Virus record (IMG/VR): IMGVR_UViG_2645727867_000006
DNA length: 11,948 nt
Strand: one strand, 5' to 3'
Origin: a virus
Lineage: Duplodnaviria > Heunggongvirae > Uroviricota > Caudoviricetes
Positions 7,201 to 11,948 of the stretch are shown here, in pieces (positions within the stretch are counted from its first letter, which is position 1; every line of letters begins with the position of its first letter). A program made the position numbers.

Positions 7201-10200
7201 AATCGTAACACATTGAATTACATAAATTTCACTTACAAAAAGTGGGACAACAGCGGGACAACATTCAGGCATTTTGGGACAACATAGCGGCATTTTGGGA
7301 CGACACGACACGTATTTTTTACCGTGCTGGAGGGTGGGACAACACAAAAACCCTCATGTCGTCCCAAAATCGCCTTATGTCGTCCCACTTTGTGGAGTAT
7401 GTTTTTAATAAAATCAACAGGTTAACATTAAGTGGGACAACCGGGACAACTGGGACGACGTGTTTTGTATATATACGAAAAAATCGAGATCTGAACTATG
7501 AAGTTAAACCGCAAACAACCACACTACCGCGCCATTGACCTTACAGAGCACTGGCTGAGAGTGGCGATAAAAATCATCGACCGCAACACGGTGGAAGGAT
7601 ACGCGAAAGCACATCCCGAACTGATAAGCGCATTCATGACCACAGCGGCGGCAAACTTTGCCACGCTGACAGAACGGGAGATTGCCGAAGCGGAACAGGT
7701 AACAACCATCAACGTAAAAACCGGAGAGTCAGGCGATGATACATGACCGCATAGCGGAGGAACTCGAGGCGAAAGGATTTTACCGGAGGGCGGCGGCGCG
7801 ATGGGGTGAAGTCATGCAGCTGGTGGAGACAGACAAGGAACGGCATCAGGTTACGATGCGACGGCTGGAATGTTCCAGGAAGGCACAGAGGCCACCGGAG
7901 CCGCCAACGGAGAACTATGCAGACCTGAGAAATGCAGTAAATCGCACTTACGCAGACATGGGGCTGAGCAAATTAGCAGAGTAGGAATACCAGAACCACA
8001 CCACACAGCCGGAGCAATCCGGCTTTTTTGCGCCCAAAAAAAGCCCGATAAGGTCAGAGGTGGCTTATCGGGCTTTTGCATATGAGGCTTTTTGGTGCAC
8101 TGACACACATGATCGGGATAATCATTTCATAATTTGCAATACAACTCAATATCATTGCACAAAATGCAATCATAATTATAATCATAACTGGATGAACATA
8201 CAGTTATGATTTTTTAAGTCAAAGAGGAATTTCTTACTATGGCTGAAGAGAAAAAAGGCGGTGTTTCGGTGTACATAAGCCCCGACATCGTGAAGGCGCT
8301 CAAGGAACGCCACCAGCAGAACGTAAAAGCAGGCATTGCGGCAGGACTTGATCCGCTGGCGATGGTTGAGCCGTCAACAGGCTGGCAGGTACGCGCCTAT
8401 TTACGCGCGGCGCTGGGTATGAATCAGGTTCACGGGGGTGAATAATGACAGGCAAAGCAACAGCACTTACCACTAATCAGCTTTTCACGTACCTGAATCG
8501 CGGGGATATTGCGGAATTTAAATTCAGTCCGCTGTTTACCACGCTGTTTTTCCCGAACGTGGCGACATTCAGCACCCAAAACATCATGCTGGATACCCTG
8601 GACATTGAAGAAGTCACCATGTCGGCGTTTTGTTCGCCTATGGTTGGCAGCCAGGTCCAGCGCGATAAAGGGTACGAAACCAGCACGATTAAACCAGGCT
8701 ACATGAAGCCAAAGCACGAAATCGATCCAACAAAAACCATCATGCGCATGGCTGGAGAAGATCCGGCACAGCTTAACGACCCTACCTACCGACGTATGCG
8801 CCTTATTACTGGCAACATGCGCCGCCAGATAAACGCCATTAAAGCGCGCGTGGAATGGCTGGCGGTGAATGCGATAACGACCGGAAAAAACATCATTGAG
8901 GGCGAAGGCATAGAACGCTATGAAATCGACTGGAAAATACCGGAAAACTGCATCATAGAGCAGGCCAAGGGTAAAAAATGGTCCGAGCATGATAAAGATA
9001 TTTACGATCCAATCTATGACATCGAACTATACGCAGATCAGGCAGGTTGCCCCGCCAACGTCATGATTATGGGCGCTGAGGTATGGCGCACGTTACGCAG
9101 CTTTAAAAAATTCCGCGAACTGTACGATCTTTCCCGTGGTTCAGAATCCGCCGCAGAACTGGCCTGTAAAAACCTGGGTGAAGTAGTGAGCTTTAAAGGC
9201 TATCTGGGCGATATTGCCCTTATCGTCTATTCCGGCAAATACACTGACAGCGACGGTACCGAAAAATATTTCCTTGAGCCTGATTTGCTGGTCCTGGGTA
9301 ACACCAACAACAAAGGGCTGGTGGCCTATGGTGCGATTATGGATCAGGAAGCTGTAAGAACAGGCGCAACGCAAAACATGTACTACCCGAAAAACTGGAT
9401 TGAGGACGGCGATCCGGCGATTGAGTACGTGCAGACGCACAGCGCACCGCAGCCGGTACCGGCAGACATTCGCAAATTTGTTACCGTCAAAATTGGTTAA
9501 CTGGGGATTCTATGAACACTCCATACATTGAGTTATTTGCAGGCAGTCAGCAGGTATCAACGACGCTGGTACATTTTGCCGCTGATGCTGGCTTTATTCA
9601 GGAATTTACCCCGCTGATGCTGTCAGACAATGGCGAGTTTAAGCCGTGGGATGGTCAGGAATCTGGCAAGGCTGTTTATCTGACTTCGTACCCCGTGGAC
9701 ACGTCGACGCAGAAATCAGCACAGTGTTACAAGACGGGGATATTTAATATCGCCGCCGTAAACTGGCCTGAGAGCGCCGACACTGACGCGAAAAAATGCG
9801 CCGCCTTTGCGGGTTCTGGCGTATCCGTTCAGCCGCTGGCGCGATAAGCAGGGGAAACGATGGCAACGAATGAAAGCATCATGGCGCTACCGCTGGCGAG
9901 TAAATTTAAAGCAGAAGCGCGGGCAATGGCTGACAGAGGTTTATCAACCTACGAGGCCGTATATCAACTCAACAAACTGGAAGAGCAGGACAAGCCGCGC
10001 GCTGATGCGATTATGGCGCTTCATGAACATAACGACTATCAGCCGCTGTTACGTGCAATGGCAAACGTGCCATGTATTAGCGTCGATAATGCTCGTGAAA
10101 TCCTGAACATGACCATAGAGCAGGAGCGCCCAAAGGTTGCGCCGGAGCTTACCGCAGCCTTTGAAAACTTTATGGACATGCACAGCCCGAAAGCCGTATC

Positions 10201-11948
10201 ACCCGGCATGGCATACGACGGCAGAAACCCGGGCGATGAAGGCGACGTCGATCGCATACTGAAAACCATCTGACATAAGGCCGGAGAAATCCGGCTTTTT
10301 TTACGGGTCCTTTCCGGCATATGGACCCGTTACGGGGCGGCGACCTCGCGGTTTTTCGCTATTTATGAGCTTTTTCAGGGTGGTGGTGGTGGTTTTGTTG
10401 TTTGCTCTATCTTTATGAATAAAAAGGGAAATATAAAACCAATACACCAACCTGAAACCTTAACTAAGTGGGGATATTGATGAAATCGCACCTGATGAAC
10501 AAAAAAACTATGGCGCAAAGCTGCCGTGTAAGTGCGACAGCGTTCGACAAGTGGGGAGTGACTCCCGTTGAACGTAAAGGCCGCGAGGCTTTTTACGATG
10601 TTGCCAGCGTGATAGACAATCGGGTAAGCAATGCAATTAACCAGGTTGCAAACGACAAAGGCGAGATTGACGATGATGAACTCTTACGAGTCAGGATCAG
10701 ATTACTGACAGCGCAGGCGGAGGCACAGGAACTTAAAAACCATCGCGAGAGTGGCGACGTAATTGATACGGGGTTTTGTATGTACGCGCTTTCAAAGCTG
10801 GCGAGTCAGATTTCATCAATCATGGACAGCCTCCCGCTTACTATGCAAAGGAGCTTCCCACAGATGACCCCCGCTATGCTGGATGGACTTAAAAAGGAAG
10901 TGGTTAAAGCCTGTAATGCTTGCGCAGGAGTTGCTGACAACCTCCCGCAGATACTGGCTGATTACCTGATGGAAACTACCGGAGACGTACCGGAGAAGTT
11001 ACTACAGAAGAAAGGCGAGTAACAGACGCGCAATTATTGAACAAAAATGAGAAAGGATCTGATAATGGCATTTTCTGGCTAAAATGCCTCGTGTCAGATC
11101 CTTTCTTTTTTTAATATTTTCATTGTTAAACAGTCTGTTACAGAGAAGAAGAACGGATCTGACTTTTGCCGGAAAATTTTCATAAACAGATAAAAACCGC
11201 GAGGTCGCCGCCCCGTAACGGGCCATAATTCCAGGAAGGACCCGACGACACCAGACTATCAGAACGATGGGGGCACAATGACAGAAGCCGAACTACTGCG
11301 ATTAATCCGTCGCGTTGCCGGAATCAGCCAGCAGGCTGACGAACAGGCCACGCAGCCGGACAGCGTGACCGCCGAAAATTATGCGCGTGTGGTTGCTGAG
11401 GTGATGCGCCGTGATGGTATTGAGCTTAACGGCGTGGATATGCGCAACATACGAACCAGAGTCCTTGAGTTGCTGGCATACCGTCGCCGCGTGGAGATGT
11501 ATCGGGAGAAGGAGAAAATCACGTACCACTGGAAGAAGCCGGAGCGGTTACGGCGGTAACTCACTGAGATTAAAGCAAAGCTCAAAATTGCGCTGGCTGA
11601 ATGATCATTATGATTACTTATGTTTACGCAGATGATTAAGGCCTAAACCGTTGATTATTCCACAATCCCCCATTGGGGGAAGCTGGCGGTAACTGGTTGA
11701 ACTTAAAGCAAAGCGCAAAATTGCGCTGGCTGAATAATCATTATGATTACGCAGATGATTAAGGAATGACCGAAGGCGGAAATTCGCCTGTGGTTGATGG
11801 GGGAGTTGCAGATCTGCAACTCGACCATGAAATTACGGAAACTACCCGTAGTTTGGGTAGTAAGAGCAACACCCAGATTTTGGGGCTTACTCGTGATACC
11901 CAAATTTGGGGTATCGGCGGCAACCATAACGACTTTCGTTACGGTTGA

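What the first reader, a model, noticed from the sequence alone, without database searches (positions are those of the whole stretch)
8239..11247. Satellite-type island carrying its own lambda-type capsid shell (gpE + gpD homologues), Nu1-like small terminase and cos
The backbone (integrase, AlpA, RHH repressor, Icd-like protein, primase/helicase with iteron origin) is that of a helper-dependent satellite, and the window contains no portal, protease/scaffold, large terminase, tail or lysis genes. Yet it encodes clear homologues of lambda gpE and gpD (reversed relative to lambda's D-E order) plus a Nu1-like TerS and lambda cosN. This points to an element that builds its own capsid shell while taking portal, TerL and tails from a lambdoid helper, possibly with altered capsid size. 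Satellites that make their own capsids are known to me mainly with HK97-type modules; whether this E/D-based arrangement is already described I cannot tell from sequence alone.
Basis: partly seen in the sequence, partly recalled or inferred. Interest (0 to 1): 0.9.

Follow-up and report, generated by a model that had tools for sequence, protein, structure and literature searches.

The report
Known E. coli phage satellite (PICI)
This is an 11-kb phage satellite of a well-studied E. coli family (the EcCICFT073-type islands); its lambda-like capsid genes were already known, and in the near-identical model island they can be deleted without stopping transfer, so the find is real but mostly ordinary.

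Summary
Window 8239-11247 encodes clear homologues of lambda gpE (42% identity), gpD (38%) and Nu1 (35%), plus exact lambda cosN.

- There are two cosN copies, inverted, flanking the terS gene.
- The 137-aa ORF between D and cos resembles the C-terminus of gpC/Nu3, so a scaffold-related gene is present.

The window comes from E. coli O104:H21 strain 94-3024. The island is 11.1 kb, inserted in caiT, and nothing phage-like lies to its right.

It is a mosaic sibling of the model Gram-negative PICI EcCICFT073. Int, AlpA, PerC, p68, MCP, Dec, p137 and p93 are 86-99% identical. The MCP is 95% identical to c1499 (PDB 3BQW).

Published work on EcCICFT073 weighs against "builds its own shell":
- Deleting c1499 or c1500, or replacing c1498-c1501 with cas9, leaves transfer intact.
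- The packaged DNA is phage-sized.

What differs here is the packaging slot, which holds a full Nu1-like TerS instead of RppA. This TerS has an N15-like DNA-binding domain. Comparison of relatives suggests cos1 is the island's private cos and cos2 copies a helper-type cosB.

The same module occurs in 492 of 5,426 complete E. coli genomes and is under purifying selection, yet its function is still unknown. Verdict: a new member of a known kind, of modest interest.

The parts
1124..1134 (.). attL core (ATAAAAACATT) at the caiT/island junction. attR lies about 313 bp beyond the window's right end. The island is 11,137 bp.
   Evidence: BLASTN of K-12 caiT against the host locus, plus the longest block shared by both junctions.
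1261..1283 (+). Paired GGTGTAGTCAC boxes inside a 76-nt repeat found near both island ends. Probably Int arm-type binding sites.
   Evidence: (D1). The Int protein carries an Arm-DNA-bind_3 domain. The arm-site role is inferred.
1308..2537 (+). Tyrosine integrase
   Evidence: Pfam Arm-DNA-bind_3 and Phage_integrase. 92% aa identity to the EcCICFT073 Int.
2912..3100 (+). AlpA-type activator/excisionase
   Evidence: 95% aa identity to EcCICFT073 AlpA. Annotated as an HTH regulator.
3818..4003 (+). isrK-like sRNA (3818-3894) and C4 antisense RNA (3916-4003), lying upstream of the ash/Icd-like ORFs
   Evidence: Rfam: 66 and 77.6 bits, both above the gathering thresholds. Annotation.
5012..7144 (+). 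Primase/helicase (DUF927 type). This replication module differs from that of EcCICFT073.
   Evidence: Pfam DUF927 3.6e-48 and PHROG 1139 'DNA primase' 4e-167. Only the N-terminal 160 aa resemble the CFT073 Pri.
7242..7442 (+). Replication-origin iterons: 6 copies of GTGGGACAACA, including a 21-nt tandem pair
7736..7984 (+). PerC-family regulator, followed by a terminator hairpin at 8007-8030
   Evidence: Pfam PerC 5.8e-36. Terminator.
8239..8445 (+). p68 (homologue of c1498), function unknown. Its stop overlaps the MCP start by one base.
   Evidence: PHROG 3255, function unknown, 8e-37. 98.5% identity to the CFT073 homologue. No Pfam or NCBIfam hit.
8445..9500 (+). gpE-family (HK97-fold) major capsid protein, homologue of c1499
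   Evidence: dN/dS 0.07-0.18. No sequenced phage reaches 60% identity and the best listed is 47%.
9512..9847 (+). gpD/SHP-family head decoration protein, homologue of c1500
   Evidence: dN/dS 0.11-0.30.
9860..10273 (+). p137 (homologue of c1501). Its C-terminal half resembles the C-terminal, Nu3-equivalent part of gpC-type proteases. A hairpin plus T7 terminator follows at 10280-10303.
   Evidence: The hairpin is read from the sequence and appears as repeat D6. The scaffold role is inferred.
10304..10467 (+). cos1: cosQ-like segment, cosN (10335-10346), then a cosB without R boxes (a GGT run followed by TTGTTGTTTGCTC). It has the lambda-like position directly upstream of terS.
   Evidence: This cosB is conserved in all six close TerS-type relatives compared (each with an N15-like DBD) and differs in Rpp-type EcCICFT073.
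10480..11022 (+). Nu1-family TerS. N15-gp1-like N-terminal DNA-binding domain, lambda-like C-terminal (gpA-binding) half, and a private tail of about 12 aa. It occupies the slot that holds rppA in EcCICFT073.
   Evidence: dN/dS 0.12-0.20.
11023..11247 (-). cos2, read on the minus strand: cosQ-like segment, cosN (11213-11202), then a lambda-architecture cosB. The three R boxes CAGATCCKTTCT are at 11161-11150 (R3), 11095-11106 (R2, inverted) and 11061-11050 (R1).
   Evidence: The same R-box class occurs in lambdoid prophage SerU-LTIIb.
11278..11559 (+). p93, a conserved protein of unknown function present in both Rpp-type and TerS-type islands
   Evidence: PHROG 1561, function unknown. 86% identity to the CFT073 homologue.

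Best explanation
The region is the late ('packaging/morphogenesis') module of a classical Gram-negative phage-inducible chromosomal island (PICI) of the EcCICFT073 family, an 11.1-kb satellite inserted in caiT.

Inferred life cycle, by homology to EcCICFT073: a lambdoid helper induces AlpA. Int then excises the island, the island's own primase-helicase replicates it from the iteron origin into concatemers, and these are cut at lambda-type cosN and packaged by the helper's machinery.

The packaging hijack differs from the published Rpp mechanism. This island encodes a full-length Nu1-type TerS. Its N15-like DNA-binding domain is predicted to bind the island's private cosB at cos1. Its conserved lambda-like C-terminal half is predicted to recruit the helper's TerL (gpA). 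This island would therefore probably not need the helper's TerS.

The second, inverted cos (cos2) carries a complete phage-type cosB (R3-R2-R1). It is best read as a helper-mimic site that a helper's own TerS can use.

The p68-gpE-gpD-Nu3-like operon is a long-resident, satellite-specific head-gene set under purifying selection. In the sister island it is dispensable for transfer and does not change head size. The most likely role is that its products are built, alone or mixed with helper proteins, into otherwise helper-made heads, as an optional supplement rather than an autonomous shell. About four island copies (44.5 kb) would fill one phage-sized head.
For: **Identity and context**
- 100% match to E. 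coli 94-3024, with caiT split around the island and no phage genes on either flank.
- Gene-by-gene identity to EcCICFT073 of 86-99% for int, alpA, perC, p68, MCP, Dec, p137 and p93. The MCP is 95-96% identical to PDB 3BQW.
- The same 11-kb architecture sits at four different att sites.
- The late module covers at least 80% of the query in 492 of 5,426 complete genomes.

**TerS**
- Full-length homology to Nu1 and no similarity to RppA.
- The DBD is closest to N15 gp1 and the C-terminal half is lambda-like.
- The cos1 cosB is conserved in all six close TerS-type islands, which share the N15-like DBD, and differs in the Rpp-type island. Two of those relatives have cos1 only.

**cos2**
- Three exact R boxes in the lambda arrangement.
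- The same box class occurs upstream of terS in prophage SerU-LTIIb.
- The box class switches (GATCC versus CATGTCG) between islands whose TerS proteins are 98% identical.

**Capsid module**
- All genes are intact and of equal length in five islands, with dN/dS of 0.07-0.4.
- No sequenced phage reaches 60% identity to MCP or TerS; the best listed hits are 47% (MCP) and 44% (TerS).
- Dispensability and phage-sized packaged DNA are shown for the sister island (PMC6092414; PMC10530653).
Against: - Nothing was tested on this island itself. Induction, helper identity, which cos is used and independence from helper TerS are all inferred.
- In EcCICFT073 the helper TerS is essential, so independence here is a prediction.
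- The resemblance of cos1 cosB to the N15 R3 is short and offset by about 8 bp relative to cosN.
- The cos1/cos2 assignment rests on seven compared islands.
- No resident helper with a GATCC-class cosB was identified in strain 94-3024. It was not among the top 60 hits.
- A role of the island's MCP and Dec in particles has no direct evidence. Published knock-outs showed no phenotype, which fits a structural supplement but equally fits a different, untested function.
Confidence: 0.72

Rival explanations
1. One reading: the island assembles its own capsid shell from its gpE, gpD and Nu3-like proteins, perhaps smaller than the helper's, and takes only portal, protease, TerL and tails from the helper.
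For: - A matched MCP + decoration + scaffold-like set sits in one terminator-bracketed operon.
- All three genes are under purifying selection and have diverged to a similar degree (36-47% identity) from phage counterparts, as a co-inherited set would.
- A decoration protein only makes sense on an assembled lattice.
- Helper-embedded relatives that interrupt the helper's E gene carry the same module (PMC10111431).
Against: - In EcCICFT073, whose module is 89-98% identical, deleting c1499 or c1500 does not reduce transfer or interference (PMC6092414).
- All packaged DNA is phage-sized in that system (PMC6092414).
- c1498-c1501 can be replaced by cas9 (PMC10530653).
- The island has no portal or protease of its own.
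Confidence: 0.12
2. The capsid-module proteins are not structural for the island. Instead they interfere with, or act as decoys against, particular phages, for example by poisoning capsid assembly of non-helper lambdoids in the way SaPIbov5 Ccm acts.
For: - The module is conserved and selected yet dispensable for transfer (PMC6092414).
- PICIs commonly carry interference genes in this region (PMC6092414).
- There is a precedent of a satellite capsid homologue that blocks its helper (SaPIbov5 Ccm, cited in PMC6092414).
Against: - Deleting c1499 or c1500 did not relieve interference with lambda (PMC6092414).
- In the sister island interference maps to rppA (PMC6739421).
- No test against other phages is available.
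Confidence: 0.1
3. The region is a decaying remnant of a lambdoid prophage (a cryptic prophage), and its head genes are leftovers without function.
For: - The genes are lambda homologues.
- CFT073's copy was historically counted among that strain's prophage-like elements (PMC6092414).
Against: - All ORFs are intact and of identical length in five islands, with dN/dS far below 1.
- The gene order is not a deletion derivative of lambda.
- The same compact 11-kb layout recurs at four att sites and in hundreds of genomes.
- The sister island is experimentally mobile (PMC6092414).
Confidence: 0.03

Closest known systems
EcCICFT073, the classical Gram-negative cos PICI (Fillol-Salom 2018, 2019)
   Same: - Same size class and gene order.
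- 86-99% protein identity for int, alpA, perC, c1498-c1501 homologues and p93.
- Two inverted lambda-type cosN sites bracket the packaging gene.
   Different: - The packaging slot holds a 180-aa Nu1-type TerS instead of the 144-aa RppA, with no detectable similarity between them.
- The cos1 cosB differs.
- The replication module differs (DUF927 versus a primase-family protein).
- The att site differs (caiT versus roxA/phoQ).
Helper-embedded PICIs, e.g. 11capE (PMC10111431)
   Same: Same cap_E - HDPD - small ORF - Nu1-type TerS order. Their TerS is 58% identical.
   Different: Those elements are integrated inside a helper prophage's late gene (E). This one is in a chromosomal gene, far from any prophage.
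Capsid-forming PICIs, e.g. EcCIEDL933 (10.1101/2022.09.08.507074)
   Same: Shares the int/alpA/rep backbone type of E. coli PICIs and carries its own HK97-fold capsid gene and TerS.
   Different: cf-PICIs also encode portal, protease, head-tail connectors, HNH and TerL, and they make their own small capsids. None of those genes is present here.
pac-type SaPIs (own TerS) and SaPIbov5 (cos SaPI with the capsid homologue Ccm)
   Same: The concept of a satellite TerS that redirects the helper's TerL to satellite DNA, and of a satellite-encoded HK97-fold capsid homologue.
   Different: They are Gram-positive and unrelated in sequence. SaPI TerS is pac-type. Ccm causes small capsids, whereas the sister of this island does not (PMC6092414).
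Phage N15 gp1/cosB and lambda Nu1/cosB
   Same: The TerS DBD is closest to N15 gp1 (44% identity overall). cos1 has a short cosB without R-box repeats, as in N15. cos2 has the lambda R3-I1-R2-R1 layout (PMC9026076).
   Different: It is not linked to a terL gene. The TerS has a private C-terminal tail. The cos2 R boxes belong to a different specificity class (GATCC) from lambda's (GTTTCC).

Membership tests
Gram-negative PICI (classical, EcCICFT073-type) | Small island (about 10-15 kb) with int at one end, integrated at its own att site and not within or beside a prophage | tested here: met
   11,137 bp between att cores in caiT. The flanks are fixABCX and caiA-E.
Gram-negative PICI (classical, EcCICFT073-type) | alpA regulator co-oriented with most genes | tested here: met
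   95% identical to EcCICFT073 AlpA. The genes are unidirectional.
Gram-negative PICI (classical, EcCICFT073-type) | Own primase/replication initiator followed by an iteron origin | tested here: met
   DUF927 / PHROG 'DNA primase' protein. Six iterons immediately downstream.
Gram-negative PICI (classical, EcCICFT073-type) | Lacks a full virion gene set (no portal, TerL, tail or lysis genes) | tested here: met
   ORF list, Pfam/PHROG scans and the RefSeq annotation of the island and its flanks.
Gram-negative PICI (classical, EcCICFT073-type) | Helper-phage-induced excision, replication, packaging and high-frequency transfer; interference with the helper | not testable with these tools
   Shown only for the sister island EcCICFT073 (PMC6092414, PMC6739421).
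Rpp-type packaging subclass of cos PICIs | Encodes an Rpp protein (139-154 aa) next to cos1 | tested here: not met
   No BLASTP similarity between the slot protein and RppA. Neither the TerS nor p137 gives a PDB hit, although an RppC crystal structure was reported (PMC6739421). No other island ORF matches RppA.
Capsid-forming PICI (cf-PICI) | Own portal, maturation protease, head-tail adaptor/connectors, TerL (+HNH) in addition to MCP and TerS | tested here: not met
   Only MCP, Dec, a Nu3-like fragment and TerS are present.
P4-like satellite | psu, sid and delta genes and a P2-type cos | tested here: not met
   No Psu or Sid domain in any late-region ORF. The cos is lambda-type GGGCGGCGACCT.
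Helper-embedded PICI | [quoted passage not shown] | tested here: not met
   Integrated in caiT.
Lambda Nu1-family TerS | N-terminal winged-HTH DBD, central oligomerisation region and C-terminal TerL-binding region, encoded just downstream of cosN-cosB | tested here: met
   Full-length alignment to Nu1, N15 gp1 and two lambdoid TerS proteins with 33 invariant columns. It lies 133 bp downstream of cosN of cos1. DNA binding and TerL binding were not tested.

The most novel reading that the evidence does not exclude
TerS-type E. coli PICIs appear to outnumber the studied RppA-type about ten-fold in complete genomes, and they may form a functionally distinct class with three properties:
1. They package without the helper's TerS, using their own N15-like TerS at a private cos1.
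2. They keep a second, exchangeable cos2 that copies the cosB class of whichever lambdoid helper is around. This would answer the published open question of why some PICIs have two cos sites.
3. With natural helpers they build heads partly or wholly from their own gpE, gpD and Nu3-like proteins, making them an intermediate between classical and capsid-forming PICIs.
Probability: 0.15. Interest if true: 0.6.

Novelty: new member of a known kind. Interest (0 to 1): 0.3.

Why it matters
As submitted, the finding re-discovers a known feature: capsid and decoration genes in classical Gram-negative PICIs. It would not surprise a specialist.

Two points still have value.
- The function of a strongly conserved, satellite-specific gpE/gpD/Nu3-like operon remains unknown, even though it occurs in about 9% of complete E. 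coli genomes, including O157:H7, O145:H28 and ATCC 25922.
- The common TerS-type packaging cassette has not been characterised in the literature I could search; published work covers the rarer Rpp type. The comparative pattern found here gives a directly testable explanation for the two cos sites: the cos1 cosB tracks the island's packaging gene, while the cos2 cosB switches among phage R-box classes.

Tried and rejected
- Complete prophage: rejected. The flanks are caiT and caiA-E.
- The TerS-like protein as an Rpp: rejected. No similarity to RppA and no PDB hit.
- p137 or p93 as an Rpp: no PDB hit for p137. p93 gave only spurious DARPin matches.
- p68 as a gpW analogue (both are 68 aa): no similarity to lambda W or the CFT073 prophage W. 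No Pfam or NCBIfam hit even at E<=5.
- Recent capture of MCP or TerS from a sequenced phage: rejected. The best listed phage identities are 47% and 44%.
- cos2 as the cognate site of the island's TerS: considered first because of its three R boxes. Rejected because the R-box class changes between islands with 98%-identical TerS, and because two relatives lack cos2 altogether.
- Inversion of the cos1-terS-cos2 cassette as the explanation for the layout: neither orientation restores a lambda order, so dropped.
- The 76-nt terminal repeat as the att core: corrected after comparison with K-12 caiT. It lies inside the island and is more likely a set of arm-type sites.
- Search for a resident helper with a GATCC-class cosB in strain 94-3024: not found among the top 60 of 692 hits, so inconclusive.
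- The Tai tail-interference paper was checked for a link to this module and none was found.

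
Full report
**Where the window comes from**

The island part of the window (1294-11948) is 100% identical to the chromosome of E. coli O104:H21 strain 94-3024 and to its ATCC duplicate record. The annotated host region shows fixABCX and a 5' fragment of caiT on the left. On the right are a 3' fragment of caiT and then caiA-E.

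Comparison with intact K-12 caiT puts the two junctions at window position about 1124-1134 and about 313 bp beyond the window's right end. Both junctions share the core ATAAAAACATT, and the insert is 11,137 bp. This is a complete small island, not a prophage.

**Check of the observation**

The named features are real.
- 8445-9500 is a Phage_cap_E protein (1.9e-50) and is 42% identical to lambda gpE over 343 residues.
- 9512-9847 is an HDPD protein (2.9e-17) and is 38% identical to gpD.
- 10480-11022 is a Phage_Nu1 / PHROG 57 small terminase and is 35% identical to Nu1 along almost its whole length.
- The lambda cohesive-end sequence GGGCGGCGACCT is present exactly.

Three corrections are needed.
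1. There are two cosN copies, at 10335 (+) and 11213 (-). They sit in 76-nt inverted arms that bracket terS.
2. The 137-aa ORF at 9860-10273 is 36% identical (E=6e-10) to residues 416-493 of a lambdoid gpC-type S49 protease, the part that corresponds to Nu3. It also hits the C-terminal end of PHROG 53. A scaffold-related gene is therefore present.
3. gpE-family proteins are HK97-fold. A crystal structure exists for a 95-96% identical protein (3BQW). It has been used as an HK97-type representative.

**What it is**

3BQW is the EcCICFT073 capsid homologue c1499. Fetching EcCICFT073 from CFT073 and comparing every ORF shows a mosaic sibling:

| Protein | Identity to EcCICFT073 |
|---|---|
| Int | 92% |
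| AlpA | 95% |
| PerC | 99% |
| p68 (c1498) | 98.5% |
| MCP (c1499) | 95% |
| Dec (c1500) | 94% |
| p137 (c1501) | 89% |
| p93 | 86% |

Two modules differ. The replication module here is a DUF927 primase-helicase with six GTGGGACAACA iterons. The packaging slot between the two cos sites holds a Nu1-type TerS here and RppA in CFT073, with no detectable similarity between the two.

The same 11-kb layout occurs at the roxA/phoQ, cspD/clpS and tRNA-Pro/yejO sites in other strains. The late module (8239-11600) is present at 80% coverage or more in 492 of 5,426 complete E. coli genomes, including O157:H7, O145:H28, O103:H2 and ATCC 25922. More distant TerS homologues (58% identity) sit in helper-embedded PICIs inserted in a prophage E gene, with the same cap_E - HDPD - x - Nu1 order.

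**What the literature already says**

- Fillol-Salom et al. 2018 (PMC6092414) described c1499 as a capsid protein and c1500 as a head decoration protein. Deleting either one had no effect on transfer or on interference with lambda. They used c1499::cat as a neutral marker, with transfer up to 1e6 by phage 80, and showed that all packaged DNA is phage-sized.
- A synthetic EcCICFT073 with c1498-c1501 replaced by cas9 was built as a deliverable element (PMC10530653).
- The Williams group states that capsid genes occur in 21 of 29 reference Gram-negative PICIs and are not required for transfer.
- The 2018 paper also notes that some of these PICIs carry terS homologues.

The arrangement is therefore known, and the 'own capsid shell' reading is contradicted for a near-identical module. 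I found no experimental work on the TerS-type cassette. The Mol Cell 2019 paper and the Murialdo and Feiss 2022 review deal only with Rpp types and do not discuss cos2.

**The packaging cassette**

The island TerS aligns end to end with Nu1, N15 gp1 and two lambdoid TerS proteins.
[quoted passage not shown] N15 is the best phage hit at 44%.
- Its C-terminal half is lambda-like. In lambda this half binds gpA (established knowledge, summarised in PMC9026076).
- It ends in a private tail of about 12 residues.

cos1 has the lambda order cosQ-cosN-cosB-terS, but its cosB has no R-box repeats. It is a GGT run followed by TTGTTGTTTGCTC, which partly resembles the single-R cosB of N15.

cos2, read on the minus strand, has the full lambda architecture. 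Three exact boxes CAGATCCKTTCT are arranged as R3, inverted R2 and R1. The same box class precedes terS in the lambdoid prophage SerU-LTIIb, and that prophage type occurs in at least 38 complete genomes.

Comparison of seven TerS-type islands gives the following.
- The cos1 cosB is conserved in all six that have the N15-like DBD.
- The cos2 R boxes are of the GATCC class in two islands and of the CATGTCG class in two others. The CATGTCG class resembles that of CFT073's helper prophage 4. Yet the TerS proteins of these islands are 98% identical.
- Two islands have no cos2 at all.
- One island (cq9) has a lambda-like DBD fused to the island-type C-terminal half.

My inference is that cos1 is the island's private packaging site, read by its own TerS, which then recruits the helper's TerL. 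cos2 would be an exchangeable copy of a helper-type cos. [quoted passage not shown] It remains an inference from a small sample.

**The capsid operon**

p68, MCP, Dec and p137 form a compact co-oriented block between two nearly identical hairpin terminators, at 8007-8030 and 10280-10303.

In five islands all four genes are intact and of identical length. dN/dS is 0.07-0.18 for MCP, 0.11-0.30 for Dec and 0.07-0.40 for p137. No record among 50,697 phage genomes reaches 60% identity to the MCP or the TerS; the best listed hits are 47% and 44%. This is therefore an old, satellite-resident lineage and not a recent capture.

Conservation of a cognate decoration protein argues that the MCP does enter an assembled lattice at some point. 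The published knock-outs argue that this is not needed with lambda, phage 80 or CFT073 prophage 4. I therefore favour an optional structural supplement to helper-made heads, with low confidence. Autonomous (small) shells and an interference or decoy role remain as rivals.

Four island copies total 44.5 kb, about 92% of the lambda genome. This fits the phage-sized packaging seen for the sister island.

**Verdict**

The satellite interpretation is right. The 'builds its own capsid' interpretation is not supported, and the architecture is already described. This particular island is a new member of the classical Gram-negative PICI family, with the common but unstudied TerS-type packaging cassette. 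Interest is modest (0.3). The most novel reading still allowed is given separately, with probability 0.15.

Noticed in passing
window 3818-4003 (+): Rfam finds an isrK-like sRNA (3818-3894, 66 bits) directly followed by a C4 antisense RNA (3916-4003, 77.6 bits). They lie just upstream of the ash-family pseudogene and the Icd-like ORF. The layout resembles the P1 immI (c4-icd-ant) immunity cassette, here inside a PICI early region.
   Followed up: partly
window 11552-11617 and 11685-11750: A 66-nt direct repeat (89% identical) at the island's right end. Each copy contains the palindrome GCGCAAAATTGCGC and ends in ...TTACGCAGATGATTAAGG. Its function is unknown.
   Followed up: no
window 1211-1286, with a partner about 170-240 bp beyond the window's right end (L001 22822-22897): A 76-nt imperfect repeat with paired GGTGTAGT(C/T)A boxes lies just inside both island ends. 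In the excised circle the two copies would flank the att core, like integrase arm-type sites.
   Followed up: partly
L019 841-1425 (E. coli cq9): A relative carries a chimeric TerS: a lambda-like DNA-binding domain joined to the island-type C-terminal half, with the same private tail (ETTGNVPEKL). No canonical lambda cosN lies within 400 bp. This suggests DBD swapping within this TerS lineage.
   Followed up: partly
L017 (strain E02) and L018 (strain 51489): These TerS-type islands have cos1 but no cos2. The p93 homologue follows terS after only 12-74 bp.
   Followed up: partly
L012-L014 6559-7916: Helper-embedded relatives carry a divergently oriented FRG-domain and DUF3892 gene pair between terS and the interrupted prophage E gene. 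This is possibly anti-phage cargo.
   Followed up: no
window 7736-7984: A PerC-family regulator, 99% identical to that of EcCICFT073, sits immediately upstream of the capsid operon. PerC-like genes of PICIs have been discussed only as virulence regulators, so a role in activating the island's late operon is untested.
   Followed up: no
E. coli complete genomes: The TerS-type cos cassette is found at 80% coverage or more in 554 of 5,426 genomes. The experimentally studied RppA-type cassette is found in 53, or 175 with any match. RppC types were not counted.
   Followed up: partly
L004 15094-15310 (EcCICFT073 cos2): EcCICFT073's cos2 also carries three R-like boxes (CATGTCCGGTT / AACCGGACAT) that resemble the CATGTCGG-class cosB of its helper prophage 4. 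The original papers reported finding no phage-type cosB in the island.
   Followed up: partly
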